IMG/VR virus record: IMGVR_UViG_2667528045_000001
DNA length: 14,927 nt
Source: a virus
Lineage: Duplodnaviria > Heunggongvirae > Uroviricota > Caudoviricetes
Direction: 5' to 3' (one strand)
Shown here: positions 275 to 10,260 of the stretch, piece after piece
Layout: every line of letters starts with the position of its first letter
Position numbering within the stretch: position 1 is the first letter of the stretch
The notes under the pieces: generated by a model
What the model saw: the letters and a program-made list of their open reading frames with translations, nothing else
Databases searched by the model: none
What the model was told of the DNA's origin: nothing
Made by a program: the position numbers and the translations under genes

Positions 275-799
275 ATGAAGTTATGGCCTGTGTTGACTGG
301 CATTGCACTCTCTTTCACTCTGATAGCATGTAAGGCCCCGACACCACCTAAAGGTGTGCAGCCGATTACAAATTTTGACACCAACCGCTACCTCGGAAAA
401 TGGTATGAAATAGCTCGGCTTGAGAACCGATTTGAACGTGGTCTGGAACAGGTCAGCGCCACTTATGGGAAACGGAACGACGGAGGGATTAGTGTACTTA
501 ATCGTGGATATGACCCAACGAAAAACAAATGGAGCGAGAGCGAAGGTAAAGCATACTTTACAGGAGATAATACAACTGCAGCGTTGAAGGTTTCGTTTTT
601 TGGCCCCTTCTATGGTGGCTATAATGTAATCAAACTGGATGATGAGTATAAGTATGCTCTTGTCAGTGGTCCGAACAGAGAATACCTATGGATTCTGGCA
701 CGGACTCCAACTATTCCAGATAATGTAAAAGCAGACTATGTGCGTACTGCTCAAAAATTGGGATTCAATGTCAATGAACTATTATGGGTCAAACAATAA
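275..799 (+). CDS. blc: Outer-membrane lipoprotein of the bacterial lipocalin (Blc) family
   Basis: Signal peptide with lipobox LIAC; lipocalin motifs GKWYEIAR and KVSFFGPFYGGYNVI, clearly similar to but diverged from remembered E. coli Blc; visibly AT-rich. Confidence 0.85.
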   Translation: MKLWPVLTGIALSFTLIACKAPTPPKGVQPITNFDTNRYLGKWYEIARLENRFERGLEQVSATYGKRNDGGISVLNRGYDPTKNKWSESEGKAYFTGDNTTAALKVSFFGPFYGGYNVIKLDDEYKYALVSGPNREYLWILARTPTIPDNVKADYVRTAQKLGFNVNELLWVKQ

Positions 800-827
800 A
801 ATACCTAACCGGATTGATACTTATTAG

Positions 828-855
828 AAAAAAAACCAGCCTTTGGGGAGGCTGG
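828..855 (-). terminator. Rho-independent terminator downstream of Q (candidate tR')
   Basis: Stem ccagcct (836-842) / aggctgg (849-855) with loop ttgggg; the A8 run at 828-835 on plus gives a U-run after the stem on the minus-strand transcript. Confidence 0.6.
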
Positions 856-955
856 CTAAATCAGGGAACAAGCTGTTATATGATCATAACTACGTTGCGA
901 TTCTAACATTTGAAACATTAGTCTAATGATAACCAGACAGCAACTTTTCCTTTAA

Positions 956-6308: not shown

Positions 6309-7016
6309 ATGGTTCAGAATGAAAAAGTGCGCAAAGAATTCGCCCAGCGGCTAGCGCAAGCCTGTAAAGAAGCTGGTCTTGATGAACATGGTAGGGGAAT
6401 GGCCATAGCCCGTGCCCTTTCTCTTTCGTCCAAAGGCGTTAGCAAATGGTTTAATGCTGAGTCTTTACCACGCCAGGAAAAAATGAATGCGCTTGCGAAA
6501 TTTCTAAACGTTGATGTTGTTTGGCTTCAGCACGGCACTTCGTTAAATGGAGCGAATGATGAAGATACTTTTTCAATTGTTGGCAAATTAAAAAAAGGGT
6601 TAGTGCGCGTGGTTGGTGAGGCAATTCTTGGTGTTGATGGTGCCATCGAGATGACCGAAGAGCGCGATGGGTGGCTCAAGATTTATAGCGATGATCCAGA
6701 TGCCTTTGGTCTTCGTGTAAAAGGAGACAGCATGTGGCCCAGAATAAAATCAGGAGAATATGTACTCATTGAGCCTAACACCAAAGTATTCCCAGGTGAT
6801 GAGGTGTTTGTCAGAACCATTGAAGGGCACAACATGATCAAGGTTCTTGGCTATGACAGAGACGGAGAATACCAATTTACAAGCATCAACCAAGACCACA
6901 GGCCAATAACGTTGCCTTATCATCAAGTAGCAAAGGTGGAGTATGTAGCTGGTATTCTGAAGCAATCTCGCCACCTAGATGACATCGAGGCCAGGGAATG
7001 GCTGAAAAGTTCATGA
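6309..7016 (+). CDS. cI: CI prophage repressor (N-terminal HTH, C-terminal LexA/S24-like autocleavage domain)
   Basis: HTH near the N-terminus; C-terminal GDSMWPRI serine motif and lysine typical of S24 peptidases; divergently arranged with cro. Confidence 0.9.
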   Translation: MVQNEKVRKEFAQRLAQACKEAGLDEHGRGMAIARALSLSSKGVSKWFNAESLPRQEKMNALAKFLNVDVVWLQHGTSLNGANDEDTFSIVGKLKKGLVRVVGEAILGVDGAIEMTEERDGWLKIYSDDPDAFGLRVKGDSMWPRIKSGEYVLIEPNTKVFPGDEVFVRTIEGHNMIKVLGYDRDGEYQFTSINQDHRPITLPYHQVAKVEYVAGILKQSRHLDDIEAREWLKSS

Positions 7017-7145: not shown

Positions 7146-8045
7146 ATGTCCCAAGAATTATCTTTAACCTTTACCGAAAACATATATTATTCAACTAAAG
7201 AACCTGTAAGCATCAAAGATGTGATTACCTCCCTTCAAGGGTGGGAGGCCATCGCAAAACAATCAGAAGGTGTTTTGCAGGAACTGACAGGGGCTAATAT
7301 CCTTGATATATCGGTGCATGTTGCGCGATTAGAAGCAGGAAGCCTTTATGAAGATATTGTTATTAAACTCCTCTTTGGTAGCCAAGAAGAAATGGACAAG
7401 TTTCTTGCTGGCGCTCATGCAAAGATCGGAAATGGGAAAATGAGAAACGCTCTCGTTGGTGCTGTTGTTATTGGTCTGGTTGGATATGGCTTAGTTCTAG
7501 CAACTAAGGCTATGGCTCCAAGCAACACCTCCCACTTTGAAGCAAATAACAATACAATCATCAATATTGGTGCCGGTGAGGCTAATATTTCACCTGACCG
7601 TCTTCAAGCAATCATAGAAAGCACGGTAACCAATAAGAAGACTCTTGCCAAAAGTTCCATTAAGACGCTTGCCCCAGCTAGGGCAGACGAAGGATCTACG
7701 ATGGTCATAGGTACAGGGGGTGGTACAGTGACCATTCCCGCTGAAACCATTAAAAAAGCCCCAACTGAAGTTGTCTTCACACCAGAGTCATATACTCAGG
7801 ATCATTTTGATGTTGATGTTGAAATCCGTGCATTAGACCTCGACAATCCAGAGAAAGGTTGGGCTGCTGTTATCCCTGGATTAATAGATCGAAGAGTAAA
7901 TATGGTTCTTGGCCCCAACGTAAACCCATCAGATTTTGCAGGTAAATTTTCTGTACGTGCTGATATAACAATAACGTACCAGCTCAAATCATCAGATAAA
8001 AAATACCAACCGAAAGAAGTCTTTATAAAAGAAATAATCAAATAA
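7146..8045 (+). CDS. Unrecognised 299-aa protein with one central transmembrane helix in the rexAB-equivalent slot; candidate prophage-encoded exclusion/defence protein
   Basis: Long uninterrupted ORF with GAGGG RBS, co-oriented with and immediately downstream of cI, followed by a terminator; hydrophobic segment NALVGAVVIGLVGYGLVLATKAMA; AT-rich relative to the lambda-like neighbours; no match to any protein I recognise. Confidence 0.8.
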   Translation: MSQELSLTFTENIYYSTKEPVSIKDVITSLQGWEAIAKQSEGVLQELTGANILDISVHVARLEAGSLYEDIVIKLLFGSQEEMDKFLAGAHAKIGNGKMRNALVGAVVIGLVGYGLVLATKAMAPSNTSHFEANNNTIINIGAGEANISPDRLQAIIESTVTNKKTLAKSSIKTLAPARADEGSTMVIGTGGGTVTIPAETIKKAPTEVVFTPESYTQDHFDVDVEIRALDLDNPEKGWAAVIPGLIDRRVNMVLGPNVNPSDFAGKFSVRADITITYQLKSSDKKYQPKEVFIKEIIK

Positions 8046-8487: not shown

Positions 8488-8796
8488 ATGACGGTAATCG
8501 TGTACGGAAAATCAACATTTGCAGGAAATGCCAAAACTCGCCGTCATGAGCGGCGCAGAAAGCTGGCCATCGAGCGTGATTCCATCTGCAACATCATCGA
8601 TTCGATCTTCGGCACAGACAGTGAGGAACCTGTTCAGGAAGACCCGAGAAAGCGGTTAAGCCTTTCTGAAAAAGCAATATCACTCGGAAGCCTTCGCTGC
8701 AAGAAAGTAGATGAATGCAGTGGAAGTGTTTGCCTGCCAAACGTAGCTATTTACGCGGCAGGCTACCGGAAATCAAAACAACTGACGGCGAGATGA
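8488..8796 (+). CDS. N: Antiterminator N, P22 gene-24 type, with arginine-rich motif
   Basis: Translation from MTVIVYGKSTFAGNAKTRRHERRRKLAIERD matches the remembered P22 N; GAGGA RBS at 8476-8480; lies downstream of nutL. Confidence 0.85.
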   Translation: MTVIVYGKSTFAGNAKTRRHERRRKLAIERDSICNIIDSIFGTDSEEPVQEDPRKRLSLSEKAISLGSLRCKKVDECSGSVCLPNVAIYAAGYRKSKQLTAR

Positions 8797-8812
8797 TAAA
8801 TTCATTTGCTAA

Positions 8813-9394
8813 TTACTTGTTTTTGTCATGCTTATCCTGAGCGATAAGTTCATCCATAAGACTGTCTTTCTTCCCAGCAAACCTAATGTAGCACTCATTT
8901 CTATAGCGTTCCGGGATAACAAAACGGTCGATTTCAGGATATCCAGTAGCAGAAGGTACCCGAATAAGAAGCCCTTTTTCGAGCAATGAGATTGCTTCAG
9001 GGCTTCCCTTTTCTGTCTTTAGCTGGTTATTAGCGGCTACAGCGAATGCCAAATACGCTCTTTCTCCAAGAGTTAACGAATCAAACAAATCTTGCACGTA
9101 TTTCTCTTCTTTAGATTTGCGCTTCTGAGCAGCGAATATCTCAATTCTTACAGTCACAGCGTGATAAGCGGAATTAACAACGCCGTTAAGCACATAGCTA
9201 ACGCAAAACAACAGGATGTAATACATCCAGTAATGAGGAAGGATTTCTGGATTATGCAGGTTTATCCATTCTTTTACGCTTACAGGCATAACAATAATCA
9301 ATATGATCAGGATGATTAGCATATGAATCAACTGTTTAAGTGTCATTCCTTGCAGGAAAAAATGCATTAGTTCCTGCCACCATGAGTTGTTCAT
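8813..9394 (-). CDS. sieB: SieB-like superinfection exclusion membrane protein
   Basis: Two N-terminal hydrophobic helices and a C-terminal region (FAAQKRKSKEEK...RVPSATGYPEIDRFVIPERYRNECYIRFAGK) that fits my recollection of the SieB family; convergent with N. Confidence 0.55.
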   Translation of the reverse strand: MNNSWWQELMHFFLQGMTLKQLIHMLIILIILIIVMPVSVKEWINLHNPEILPHYWMYYILLFCVSYVLNGVVNSAYHAVTVRIEIFAAQKRKSKEEKYVQDLFDSLTLGERAYLAFAVAANNQLKTEKGSPEAISLLEKGLLIRVPSATGYPEIDRFVIPERYRNECYIRFAGKKDSLMDELIAQDKHDKNK

Positions 9395-9608
9395 CGGCGT
9401 TTCTCTTTTGCTCTCTGTAGGGGTGAATAGAGTTTATCCGATTTCTCGCTGTAGGGGTACACGAGAACCACCGAGCCTGATGTGGTTAAAAGACAGGCAT
9501 ACTAATAAACACTGCACTGTGTATTCATTCCAACGAGTGAATACACTGAGCAATGTCGCTCGTAACTAAACAGGAGCCGACTTGTTCTGATTATTGGAAA
9601 TCTTCTTT

Positions 9609-9634
9609 GCCCTCCAATGTGAGGGCGATTTTTT
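9609..9634 (+). terminator. Rho-independent terminator in the PL operon upstream of ea10 (tL-like)
   Basis: Stem gccctc (9609-9614) / gagggc (9621-9626) followed by tttttt (9629-9634). Confidence 0.5.
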
Positions 9635-9654
9635 ATCTGTGAGGATATGAATAG

Positions 9655-10023
9655 ATGTCAAACATCAAAAAATACATCATTGATTACTACTGGAAAGCAT
9701 CAATAGAAATTGAAATCGACCATGACGTAATGACAGAGGAAAAACTTCACCAGATTAATAATTTCTGGTCAGACTCTGAATACCGACTCAATAAACACGG
9801 CTCTGTATTAAATGCTGTATTAATCATGCTGGCGCAACATGCTCTGCTTATAGCAATTTCAAGCGACTTAAATGCATATGGTGTTGTGTGTGAGTTCGAC
9901 TGGAATGATGGAAATGGTCAGGAAGGATGGCCTCCAATGGATGGTAGCGAAGGAATAAGAATTACCGATATCGATACATCAGGAATATTTGATTCAGATG
10001 ATATGACTATCAAAGCCGCCTGA
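9655..10023 (+). CDS. ea10: Ea10-like early protein (122 aa, acidic C-terminus)
   Basis: Length and the 73-nt spacing to cIII fit my recollection of lambda ea10; I cannot recall the protein sequence itself. Confidence 0.5.
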   Translation: MSNIKKYIIDYYWKASIEIEIDHDVMTEEKLHQINNFWSDSEYRLNKHGSVLNAVLIMLAQHALLIAISSDLNAYGVVCEFDWNDGNGQEGWPPMDGSEGIRITDIDTSGIFDSDDMTIKAA

Positions 10024-10095
10024 GCGCGGCGTTACCGCATACCAATAACGCTTCACTCGAGGCGTTTTTCGTTATGTATAAATAAGGAGCACACC

Positions 10096-10260
10096 ATGCA
10101 ATATGCCATTGCAGGGTGGCCTGTTGCTGGCTGCCCTTCCGAATCTTTACTTGAACGAATCACCCGTAAATTACGTGACGGATGGAAACGCCTTATCGAC
10201 ATACTTAATCAGCCAGGAGTCCCAAAAAATGGATCAAACACTTATGGCTATCCAGACTAA
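10096..10260 (+). CDS. cIII: CIII (FtsH inhibitor stabilising CII), 54 aa
   Basis: Below the ORF-track length cutoff; manual translation from ATG 10096 gives [54 protein letters not shown], matching remembered lambda CIII; AAGGAG RBS. Confidence 0.9.
   Translation: MQYAIAGWPVAGCPSESLLERITRKLRDGWKRLIDILNQPGVPKNGSNTYGYPD

What the first reader, a model, noticed from the sequence alone, without database searches (positions are those of the whole stretch)
8813..9654. SieB-like exclusion gene antisense to the PL operon, with a structured upstream region
A sieB-like membrane protein gene lies convergent with N, so PL transcription would run antisense through it. Its 260-bp upstream region (9395-9654) contains two direct repeats of tc.ctgtaggggt (about 9412-9424 and 9449-9461), a perfect 9-bp inverted repeat gtgtattca/tgaatacac (9519-9527 and 9538-9546), and a plus-strand terminator at 9609-9634. 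Together with the 299-aa gene this would give the prophage two separate lysogen-expressed exclusion loci flanking N.
Basis: partly seen in the sequence, partly recalled or inferred. Interest (0 to 1): 0.45.

Follow-up and report, generated by a model that had tools for sequence, protein, structure and literature searches.

The report
Known sieB gene with antisense RNAs

Summary
ORF 8813-9394(-) is a P22-type SieB: Pfam SieB E=3e-25 and 84% identity to P22 SieB, with the nested Esc start at 9322.

The 260-bp "upstream region" is two unrelated modules joined where lambda carries orf28-ral.

- **Module 1 (9395-9499).** It holds the P22-mapped sieB promoter (31/31 identical, 9461..9431) and its TSS (9424). 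On the PL strand it holds the sas antisense RNA homologue (107/110 identical).
- **The direct repeats.** They lie at +1..+10 of the sieB mRNA and over the -35 region.
- **Module 2 (9519-9635).** It belongs to the PL strand: a hairpin, then the lambda PreS/LPR1 Hfq sRNA (87/88 identical, seed intact), ending at terminator tL2a.

The inverted repeat and the terminator are therefore not sieB control elements. The 299-aa gene has no known function.

Comparative work added one unexpected result. The distal repeat forms the 5' arm and loop of a PL-sense RNA hairpin, which is followed by a covariation-supported H-type pseudoknot. This cassette sits head-to-head with about 25 unrelated gene families across Enterobacterales phages. 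The two repeats change together in at least 7 sequence families.

The locus is already known. The cassette reading may be new.

The parts
8813..9394 (-). sieB coding sequence (193 aa, stop included): superinfection exclusion protein B, P22 type
   Evidence: ORF list. Pfam SieB E = 3.2e-25. PHROG 1301 E = 7e-123. 161/191 identical to P22 SieB; only 24% identical to lambda SieB. Strongly hydrophobic N-terminal segment at about residues 16-47.
8813..9322 (-). Nested in-frame esc reading frame, starting at Met25 of SieB (ATG 9322..9320)
   Evidence: P22 annotation places esc 72 nt into sieB. The window's first 60 residues differ from P22 at 2 positions and keep Met25. Expression is inferred, not shown.
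9431..9461 (-). sieB promoter (PsieB): -10 TAAACT at 9436..9431; weak -35 TACCCC at 9459..9454
   Evidence: 31/31 identical to the promoter feature annotated in P22 NC_002371 at 29690-29720. The consensus scan does not detect it because it is weak.
9424..9424 (-). Predicted sieB transcription start, giving a 30-nt leader before the ATG at 9394
   Evidence: Transferred from the P22 'sieB RNA start site' at 29727 through an identical surrounding sequence.
9408..9424 (.). Proximal direct repeat R1 (core CTGTAGGGGT, 9415-9424). Its complement is nt +1..+10 of the sieB mRNA.
   Evidence: Conserved and co-varying with R2 in other phages.
9442..9458 (.). Distal direct repeat R2 (core 9449-9458). It overlaps the -35 of PsieB and forms the 5' arm plus GGGG loop of the PL-sense hairpin.
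9390..9499 (+). sas-like antisense RNA region (PL sense). Its first 35 nt are complementary to the sieB leader and start codon.
   Evidence: 107/110 identical to nt 1-111 of the P22 RNA 'P22A-sas' detected by RNA-seq in PMC13397905. The ends in this phage are inferred.
9443..9467 (+). RNA hairpin UUCUCG-C-UGUA-GGGG-UACA-CGAGAA
   Evidence: Folding. Six of 10 pairs show compensatory changes across 42 phage sequences. In diverged families it is more stable on the + strand.
9468..9498 (+). Predicted H-type pseudoknot. S1 = 9468-9471 / 9482-9485 (CCAC/GUGG). S2 = 9475-9479 / 9494-9498 (GCCUG/CAGGC). A-rich L3 = 9486-9493.
   Evidence: Most conserved block of the region. Compensatory variants exist for both stems. 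A complete pseudoknot is found in 111/125 box-unbiased sequences, against 14/1250 shuffles. No Rfam family matches.
9500..9503 (.). Junction where lambda and P22 carry orf28 and ral (about 340 bp absent here)
   Evidence: blastn against lambda: 9415-9499 matches 34480-34396 and 9504-10100 matches 34055-33459. HK620 has the same ral-less join.
9519..9546 (+).
   Evidence: Identical in lambda. It lies just outside the lpr1 deletion used by the PreS authors (primer P969). Its function is unknown.
9548..9635 (+). PreS (LPR1) Hfq-dependent small RNA, 88 nt. The seed at 9583-9599 is intact.
   Evidence: 87/88 identical to lambda LPR1, as defined by cloning and in-vitro-transcription primers in Table S5 of bioRxiv 10.1101/2024.10.31.621285. 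Fold z = -3.9.
9607..9635 (+). Intrinsic terminator tL2a of the early-left operon, which is also the PreS 3' end
   Evidence: Terminator scan. Named tL2a in the PreS paper and at the homologous position in the HK620 record.
9655..10023 (+). ea10 (DUF2528), the next PL-operon gene
   Evidence: Pfam DUF2528 E = 1.5e-47. Annotated Ea10/ssb in related phages.

Best explanation
This is the standard lambdoid sieB locus in its P22-type allele. The adjoining 260 bp holds two further known elements that are read from the PL strand.

**In the lysogen (inferred from P22).** The weak promoter PsieB (9461..9431, start at 9424) makes a short-leader mRNA. That mRNA yields the membrane protein SieB, which aborts the lytic growth of some superinfecting phages. 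It also yields some Esc from the internal Met25 start.

**When the phage itself grows lytically.** PL-sense transcription produces the sas-type antisense RNA, at about 9390-9499. Its 5' 35 nt pair with the sieB leader and start codon. Translation then shifts from SieB to its inhibitor Esc, so the phage does not exclude itself.

- R1 is the first 10 nt of the sieB mRNA.
- R2 overlaps the -35 of PsieB. On the other strand it is the 5' arm and GGGG loop of a hairpin, which is followed by a pseudoknot. Together these form the structured body of the antisense RNA.

**The rest of the region (9519-9635).** It has nothing to do with sieB. It is the PL-transcribed, Hfq-dependent sRNA PreS (9548-9635). 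In lambda, PreS raises DnaN translation to aid phage replication. It ends at terminator tL2a and is preceded by a hairpin of unknown role.

The orf28-ral segment that separates the two modules in lambda and P22 is simply absent here.

**Shown here:** the homologies, positions and structures. **Inferred from P22 and lambda work:** expression, exclusion, the translational switch, and Hfq/dnaN regulation.
For: - SieB family membership, and 84% identity to the characterised P22 protein.
- The locus is 99.1-100% identical to annotated sieB regions of phages 1H12/Lambda_ev and VT1-Sakai, and to E. coli prophages.
- The P22 promoter feature is 31/31 identical, and the TSS maps to 9424.
- The esc start is conserved.
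- 107/110 identity to the P22 sas-region RNA seen by RNA-seq.
- The sas function is described in PMC12197685 and PMC7067206.
- The region splits into two lambda-homologous blocks with ral missing.
- PreS is 87/88 identical with its seed intact, and its terminator is named tL2a.
- 9504-9640 folds strongly on the + strand, z = -5.2.
- In 70 marker-bearing loci, the repressor and N genes lie upstream and ea10/cIII/gam/bet/exo lie downstream, all on the same strand as the hairpin-pseudoknot.
Against: - No expression data exist for this phage.
- The original sas mapping papers (Ranade & Poteete 1993) could not be read. The sas ends therefore rest on a 2026 RNA-seq table (a 127-nt species) and a review's figure of 105 nt.
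- No convincing sigma-70 promoter for sas was found upstream of 9390 (and inspection). The RNA may be processed from the PL transcript instead.
- PsieB matches consensus poorly (2/6 at -35).
- The role of the hairpin at 9519-9546 is unexplained.
Confidence: 0.85

Rival explanations
1. The whole 9395-9654 stretch is one regulatory region for sieB. The repeats are operators, the inverted repeat is a regulator site or leader structure, and the terminator insulates sieB.
For: All the elements lie upstream of the sieB start. The repeats do flank the core promoter.
Against: - The sieB mRNA starts at 9424, so 9425-9654 is not in its transcript.
- 9504-9654 is a separate homology block. In lambda and P22 it sits about 340 bp further away, beyond ral.
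- That block matches PreS/tL2a on the other strand.
- The hairpin and the terminator contain U.G pairs or a U-tail only on the + strand.
Confidence: 0.05
2. The two direct repeats are DNA operators for a protein. That protein would switch PsieB, and the equivalent promoters of other genes at this position, on or off by binding at -35 and at +1.
For: - Placement at -35 and +1 is classic repressor geometry.
- The repeats are conserved at a fixed spacing of 31-37 bp, mostly 33-34, and change together in at least 7 sequence families.
- Mismatches flanking the repeats show no bias toward G.U-compatible changes (67 against 85). RNA-RNA pairing is therefore not specifically favoured beyond the exact core.
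Against: - No cognate co-varying DNA-binding gene was identified.
- The same repeat word occurs in phages of different immunity types: lambda, P22, HK620, VT1-Sakai and this window.
- R2 is embedded in a hairpin with compensatory changes and many G.U pairs on the PL-sense strand. That points to RNA, not DNA, as the selected form.
- 'Short' cassettes lack the second repeat altogether.
Confidence: 0.12
3. The conserved block and the repeats are only recombination 'linker' sequence at a mosaic module boundary. On this view the repeats are a relic of an old 34-bp promoter duplication with no present function.
For: - The block sits exactly where unrelated genes are swapped in and out.
- The lambda and P22-type sieB alleles diverge immediately after R1.
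- Conserved boundary sequences are known in lambdoid phages (own knowledge).
Against: - A relic would decay independently in each copy. Instead the two copies change together across families while the spacer diverges.
- Both pseudoknot stems and the hairpin show compensatory substitutions. 111/125 sequences keep a complete pseudoknot, against 1% of shuffles.
Confidence: 0.08

Closest known systems
Salmonella phage P22 sieB / esc / sas system (Ranade & Poteete 1993; annotated in NC_002371)
   Same: - Same gene: 84% amino-acid identity.
- Same nested Esc start.
- Identical mapped promoter and TSS context.
- Same position after the N-type antiterminator, antisense to PL.
- 97% identical sas-region RNA.
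   Different: - The host is E. coli, not Salmonella.
- ral, orf78, orf87 and gene 17, which follow in P22, are replaced here by a direct join to PreS-ea10.
- The C-terminal half of the protein is more diverged.
- No phenotype was tested.
Phage lambda sieB (lambdap48, 34482-35036)
   Same: Same map position and orientation. The 85-bp upstream block holding both repeats, the hairpin and the pseudoknot is 94-95% identical.
   Different: The protein is only 24% identical. Homology ends right after the proximal repeat. Lambda has orf28-ral between this block and PreS.
Lambda PreS / LPR1 Hfq-dependent sRNA ending at tL2a (bioRxiv 10.1101/2024.10.31.621285)
   Same: 87/88 nt identical, with an identical seed, terminator hairpin and U-tail. 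It sits immediately upstream of ea10.
   Different: In lambda it lies between ral and ea10. Here ral is missing, so it directly follows the sieB/sas block, as in HK620. There is one base change in the terminator loop (9617).
Prophage defence genes silenced by antisense arrangement during induction, e.g. S. aureus Tha/Ith (PMC11087260)
   Same: A lysogen-expressed exclusion or defence gene is embedded antisense to lytic-cycle transcription. A built-in device prevents self-targeting.
   Different: In Tha/Ith the inhibitor is a protein from an overlapping antisense gene. Here it is an antisense RNA plus an N-terminally truncated isoform (Esc). There is no sequence relationship.
Small H-type pseudoknot RNAs such as the preQ1-I riboswitch aptamer (Rfam RF00522)
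   Same: Similar size (about 31 nt) and topology: a short stem 1, a loop that pairs with the 3' tail, and an A-rich loop 3.
   Different: No Rfam model matches, even at E <= 5. The conserved nucleotides differ and no ligand is implied. This is a resemblance of shape only.

Membership tests
SieB superinfection exclusion protein (Pfam PF14163; P22 SieB) | Profile match above the curated threshold | tested here: met
   88.9 bits against a cut-off of 26, E = 3.2e-25, covering profile positions 2-144 of 147. PHROG 1301 E = 7e-123.
SieB superinfection exclusion protein (Pfam PF14163; P22 SieB) | Full-length similarity to the genetically characterised P22 protein | tested here: met
   161/191 identical with no gaps.
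SieB superinfection exclusion protein (Pfam PF14163; P22 SieB) | Hydrophobic (membrane) N-terminal region | tested here: met
   Kyte-Doolittle 19-residue windows reach up to 3.0 over about residues 16-47. The topology itself was not predicted.
SieB superinfection exclusion protein (Pfam PF14163; P22 SieB) | Located just downstream of the N-type antiterminator and transcribed against PL from its own promoter | tested here: met
   N (Pfam N_peptide, E = 1e-40) ends at 8796 and the sieB stop is at 8813. The promoter is 31/31 identical to the P22 feature.
SieB superinfection exclusion protein (Pfam PF14163; P22 SieB) | Aborts lytic growth of superinfecting heterologous phage | not testable with these tools
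   Needs a phage challenge of cells expressing the ORF.
Esc (internal-start inhibitor of SieB) | In-frame ATG 72 nt into sieB that yields the C-terminal 169 aa | tested here: met
   ATG at 9322..9320 is Met25. The surrounding sequence is the same as in P22, where esc is annotated. Translation from it was not tested.
sas antisense RNA of P22 | PL-sense RNA complementary to the sieB leader and start codon | tested here: met
   Window 9390-9499 is 107/110 identical to nt 1-111 of the P22 RNA sequence in PMC13397905. Nt 1-35 are antisense to +1..+35 of the predicted mRNA.
sas antisense RNA of P22 | Discrete transcript (about 105 nt) that switches translation from SieB to Esc | not testable with these tools
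   The length comes from the PMC12197685 table. No promoter was recognisable upstream of 9390. Needs RNA mapping and reporter assays.
PreS / LPR1 sRNA of lambda | Sequence and seed identity with the experimentally defined 88-nt RNA | tested here: met
   87/88 identical. The 17-nt seed region at 9583-9599 is identical.
PreS / LPR1 sRNA of lambda | GC-rich 3' hairpin with a U-tail (Hfq-type terminator, tL2a) | tested here: met
   Stem 9607-9628 (8 pairs) followed by UUUUUU.
PreS / LPR1 sRNA of lambda | Position between ral and ea10 | tested here: not met
   ea10 follows, but ral is absent. This is a context difference only, and HK620 shares it.
PreS / LPR1 sRNA of lambda | Hfq binding and activation of dnaN translation | not testable with these tools
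   Known for lambda only.
Any curated RNA family (Rfam 15), for 9395-9503 | Covariance-model match | tested here: not met
   Nothing reaches gathering score in the region, and nothing overlaps 9443-9499 at E <= 5.
Known anti-phage defence systems (PADLOC), for SieB and the 299-aa protein | Profile match | tested here: not met
   No hits at E <= 0.01.

The most novel reading that the evidence does not exclude
The block 9408-9498 is one copy of a portable, previously uncatalogued RNA cassette of lambdoid early-left operons. The cassette is a PL-sense hairpin followed by a 31-nt H-type pseudoknot, which is the structured body of P22 sas.

**Where it occurs**
- It is placed head-to-head with the start of whatever lysogen-expressed gene sits there: about 25 unrelated families, of which SieB is only one.
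- It is found in phages and prophages across Enterobacterales.

**Proposed function**
- It provides a generic antisense switch that silences the resident gene once PL fires.

**Why the repeats co-vary**
- In every architecture, the first 8-14 nt of the mRNA are complementary to the hairpin's loop and 5' arm.
- In 'short' cassettes this follows from physical overlap.
- This suggests loop-to-5'-end RNA recognition as the selected interaction.
Probability: 0.35. Interest if true: 0.65.

Novelty: already known. Interest (0 to 1): 0.35.

Why it matters
As filed, the finding matters little. sieB, esc, sas, PreS and tL2a are all described, and this copy is 97-100% identical to sequenced phages and to E. 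coli prophages.

It is worth recording for annotation purposes. The stretch between sieB and ea10 is not empty "upstream" DNA. It carries two PL-sense small RNAs that gene callers, including PGAP, leave unannotated.

The comparative by-product could matter more. Suppose the hairpin-pseudoknot cassette with co-varying repeats really is a general antisense module attached to many different prophage cargo genes. It would then:
- explain how lambdoid phages avoid being hurt by their own exclusion or defence genes;
- give a sequence handle (the conserved box) for finding such lysogen-expressed cargo genes in Enterobacterales prophages;
- add an RNA family missing from Rfam.

Tried and rejected
- **Rfam.** Searched the whole window at gathering score and 8700-9750 at E <= 5. 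The only real hit is the cIII thermometer at 10083-10141; nothing hits the sieB-ea10 spacer.
- **PADLOC.** No hits for SieB or the 299-aa protein.
- **Original papers.** The P22 sieB and sas papers could not be opened by DOI. The sas coordinates therefore come from secondary sources.
- **A sigma-70 promoter for sas on the + strand.**
  - The scan finds only CTTACA-17-TATGAT at 9279-9307. A start there would cover the esc start codon, which does not fit the published effect of sas, so I did not adopt it.
  - Nothing convincing lies just upstream of 9390.
- **Direction of R1/R2 differences.** I tested whether they favour G.U-compatible changes, as RNA-RNA pairing between the mRNA 5' end and the hairpin would predict. 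The result was 67 compatible against 85 incompatible transitions in the flanks, which is uninformative.
- **MAFFT misalignments.**
  - MAFFT shifted stem 1 of the pseudoknot in GC-type variants in A3 and A4, and shifted stem 2 in A5.
  - S1 was therefore counted on A5 and S2 on A4, and a deterministic pseudoknot search was added.
- **PreS paper supplements.** Searched for lambda sieB-antisense reads. Only the host Rac sieB gene appears.
- **Literature.** Searches for a description of the conserved cassette found none. The library is incomplete, so this is weak evidence of novelty.
- **Rejected ideas.**
  - The repeats as a chance match.
  - The pseudoknot as a frameshift signal; there is no + strand ORF across it.
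  - A G-quadruplex; one repeat family has GTGG instead of GGGG.
Full report
**1. Observation**

The window is a lambdoid immunity and early-left region read in the PL direction.

- The gene order is a cI-type repressor (6309-7016, +), a 299-aa ORF (7146-8045, +), N (ending at 8796, +), the ORF in question (8813-9394, -), ea10/DUF2528 (9655-10023, +), then the cIII thermometer, gam, bet and exo.
- The direct repeats are 17-nt copies at 9408-9424 and 9442-9458, 88% identical, with spacing 34.
- Their exact core, CTGTAGGGGT, occurs only at 9415-9424 and 9449-9458 in the whole window.
- The 9-bp inverted repeat is exact. As + strand RNA it extends to a 12-bp stem with one U.G pair.
- The + strand terminator is stem 9607-9628 plus a T-run.

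**2. The gene**

- The 193-aa product matches Pfam SieB (E = 3.2e-25, 88.9 bits against a cut-off of 26) and PHROG 1301 (E = 7e-123).
- It is 84% identical over its full length to P22 SieB but only 24% identical to lambda SieB. It is therefore the P22-type allele.
- The region 8700-9800 is 99.8% identical to coliphages of the 1H12/Lambda_ev group and 99.1% identical to VT1-Sakai. In all of these the gene is annotated sieB.
- The stretch 9380-9660 is 100% identical in E. coli chromosomes.
- The P22 record annotates a nested esc frame starting 72 nt into sieB. The window keeps that ATG (9322..9320, Met25) in an almost identical N-terminus.

**3. The "260-bp upstream region" is two modules**

- blastn against lambda splits it in two. 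9415-9499 equals lambda 34480-34396, the block just upstream of lambda sieB. 9504-10100 equals lambda 34055-33459, the block downstream of ral.
- The roughly 340 bp that carry orf28 and ral in lambda, and ral in P22, are absent. The junction is at 9500-9503.
- HK620 has the same join.

**4. Module 1: promoter, repeats and antisense RNA**

- The promoter feature of the P22 record (29690-29720) is 31/31 identical to window 9461..9431 on the minus strand. The annotated sieB RNA start (29727) maps to 9424.
- It follows that the proximal repeat, read on the sieB strand (ACCCCTACAG), is nt +1..+10 of the mRNA. The distal repeat covers the weak -35 (TACCCC), and the -10 (TAAACT) lies between them.
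- On the opposite strand, a 2026 RNA-seq study of P22 infection reports a 127-nt RNA, which its authors equate with sas. Nt 1-111 of that RNA are 107/110 identical to window 9390-9499.
- Its first 35 nt are antisense to the sieB leader and AUG.
- Secondary sources summarise the published function. sas switches translation of the sieB mRNA from SieB to Esc, which lets the phage escape its own exclusion.
- I could not open the 1993 primary papers. I also could not recognise a sas promoter.

**5. Module 2: PreS and tL2a**

- The lambda sRNA LPR1/PreS lies between ral and ea10. It is about 88 nt long, is processed to about 68 nt, binds Hfq, is expressed only in lytic growth and activates dnaN translation. 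Its 3' end is the early-left terminator tL2a.
- The authors' cloning and transcription primers define the RNA as GAGCAATG...GGGCGATTTTTTA.
- The window has this RNA at 9548-9635 with 87/88 identity and an identical seed at 9583-9599.
- The HK620 record labels the homologous terminator tL2A.
It is identical in lambda and lies just outside the authors' lpr1 deletion. Its role is unknown.
- The whole 9504-9640 stretch folds far better than shuffles on the + strand, z = -5.2.
- These elements belong to the PL transcript, not to sieB.

**6. What the repeats are part of**

*First alignment.*
- I aligned the sieB-proximal block from lambda, P22, HK620 and several diverged phages.
- Both repeats are kept while the spacer diverges. 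In a Klebsiella phage, both copies carry the same changes.
- The most conserved part is a 31-nt box just beyond the distal repeat.

*The cassette in IMG/VR.*
- In every marker-bearing locus (70 of 120), the repressor and N lie upstream and ea10/cIII/kil/gam/bet/exo/erf lie downstream, all on the box strand. There were no exceptions.
- On that strand, the box is always preceded by a hairpin and abuts the start of a minus-strand gene.
- Those genes fall into about 25 unrelated clusters, and SieB accounts for only 12 loci.

*The repeats co-vary.*
- In 42 of 85 unique upstream regions, the hairpin's 5' arm and loop are repeated 33-35 nt further upstream. Shuffles gave this in 10 of 1700 cases.
- Using a broader definition of the box and all loci fetched by then, 103 of 181 unique regions carry a repeat of at least 7 nt at a spacing of 31-37 nt.
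- At least seven different repeat words occur: CTGTAGGGGT, GTTGTTGGGGA, TTGACTGTGGAA, TTGCATTGGGG, TTGTGGGGG, TTGCTGGGG and ACTGGGGA.
- In the five families I checked by eye, the minus strand reads a -10 hexamer (TAAACT, TAATCT, TATATT or TATAAT), then 6 nt, then the proximal repeat. The repeat therefore starts at the predicted +1 in these, as mapped in P22 (read from the sequences).
- 'Short' cassettes lack the second copy. They have TATNCT directly after the box, which would put the mRNA start inside the hairpin. This is an inference.

*The hairpin is an RNA feature of the PL-sense strand.*
- 56 of 63 unique hairpins are more stable on that strand (mean -8.8 against -6.2 kcal/mol) because of G.U pairs.
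- An independent genome set gave 61 against 14.
- On a 42-sequence alignment, 6 of 10 hairpin pairs show double compensatory changes.
- Over the whole proposed structure (hairpin plus both box stems), 91% of cells pair, against about 40% when the partners are slid.

*The box forms a pseudoknot.*
- It can form two interleaved stems. In the window these are S1 = CCAC/GUGG and S2 = GCCUG/CAGGC.
- To avoid selecting on the box itself, I retrieved loci through the repeats alone.
- Among 125 unique sequences, 111 have a complete H-type pseudoknot with fixed geometry. The same search found 24 on the opposite strand and 14 in 1250 shuffles.
- There are many compensatory variants. For S1: CGCG/CGCG, CCATG/CATGG, CAGGG/CCCTG, CCCGC/GCGGG and TCACG/CGTGA. 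For S2: GCCGG/CCGGC, GCTGG/CCAGC and GCCTT/AAGGC.
- Loop 3 is 60% A.

*Catalogues, range and limits.*
- No Rfam model matches.
- The box occurs in 99 stretches of the one-genome-per-species collection. Most are Enterobacterales, from Escherichia to Xenorhabdus and Proteus. The rest are chance matches in unrelated genomes or contaminating lambda DNA.
- These counts use related sequences and simple controls. They are strong for the existence of the structure, but they are not a phylogeny-aware test.

**7. Mechanism**

*Best-supported model (confidence about 0.85).* The identities are shown here; the functions are inferred from P22 and lambda.
- The prophage expresses SieB, and some Esc, from PsieB.
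- Lytic, PL-sense transcription yields the sas-type RNA. It masks the sieB ribosome-binding site, so Esc predominates and the phage spares itself.
- Further along the same transcript, PreS is released at tL2a and acts on host mRNAs through Hfq.
- The repeats are a structural part of this promoter/antisense overlap.

*Why the two copies must stay identical is unresolved.*
- The RNA reading is that the mRNA 5' end must match the hairpin's loop and 5' arm. It fits the strand bias and the short/long comparison. The flank-mismatch test did not support it further.
- A DNA-operator reading remains possible (confidence about 0.12).
- A neutral linker or relic reading is unlikely, given the concerted change and the compensatory substitutions.

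**8. Comparison and membership**

- The locus meets every sequence-testable criterion for SieB, Esc, the sas region and PreS/tL2a.
- The only criterion not met is context: ral is absent next to PreS.
- Phenotypes could not be tested.
- The 299-aa gene occupies the rex position after cI. It has only a PHROG of unknown function, distant (24% identical) relatives in Pseudomonas phages, no defence-model hit and no Pfam hit above threshold (one sub-threshold DUF1206 match). The claim of "two exclusion loci" is unsupported.

**9. Verdict**

- The finding as written describes an already known locus and partly misassigns its parts.
- Its direct repeats are nevertheless real, conserved and co-varying. 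They led to a hairpin-pseudoknot cassette that I could not find in Rfam or in the searchable literature.
- I score the finding itself low to moderate, and I give the cassette reading as the novel case.

Noticed in passing
window 9408-9498; loci L091-L210, L211-L299, L301-L398, L400-L511: A conserved cassette: an optional upstream repeat, a PL-sense hairpin and a 31-nt H-type pseudoknot. It lies head-to-head with about 25 unrelated minus-strand gene families in early-left operons of phages and prophages across Enterobacterales. It is absent from Rfam.
   Followed up: yes
window 7146-8045 (+): A 299-aa gene sits directly after the cI-type repressor, in the position of rexAB in lambda. It matches PHROG 4506 (unknown function). 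It has no PADLOC hit and no Pfam hit above threshold; the one Pfam match (DUF1206) scores 16.9 bits against a cut-off of 26.2. It is 100% identical only in the 1H12/Lambda_ev phage group, with 24%-identical relatives in Pseudomonas phages.
   Followed up: partly
window 9279-9307 (+): The best sigma-70-like match of the region (CTTACA-17-TATGAT, 9/12) lies inside sieB and points in the PL direction. It could be an internal antisense promoter. It would start at about 9314 and cover the esc start codon.
   Followed up: no
window 10047-10066 (+) and 10083-10141 (+): A second terminator-like hairpin with a T-run lies between ea10 and cIII, possibly equivalent to tL2b. It is followed by the lambda cIII thermoregulator (Rfam RF01804, 88.5 bits).
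   Followed up: no
window 9500-9503: orf28 and ral are missing relative to lambda and P22. HK620 and some IMG/VR contigs have the same ral-less join. Many close relatives differ from the window only by a ral insertion here.
   Followed up: partly
L009 (phage SfV, U82619) about 622-864, minus strand: An unannotated 81-aa ORF (MTFDEKELDNAINK...) starts right next to the conserved box in SfV, at the place where other phages have sieB. The record annotates only a 'putative terminator' there.
   Followed up: partly
L323, L324, L373 (genome contigs): Tiny contigs (under 1 kb) in assemblies of Nocardioides, Lacrimispora and Aeromicrobium carry pure lambda sieB-upstream sequence. This is most likely lambda DNA contamination of those assemblies.
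   Followed up: no
L441 (IMG/VR), tail after the type-3 repeats: One variant replaces the interleaved stems with two separate small hairpins (AGTC-GCAA-GACT and GCCCG-GAAAGA-CGGGC). This is an exception to the pseudoknot pattern.
   Followed up: no
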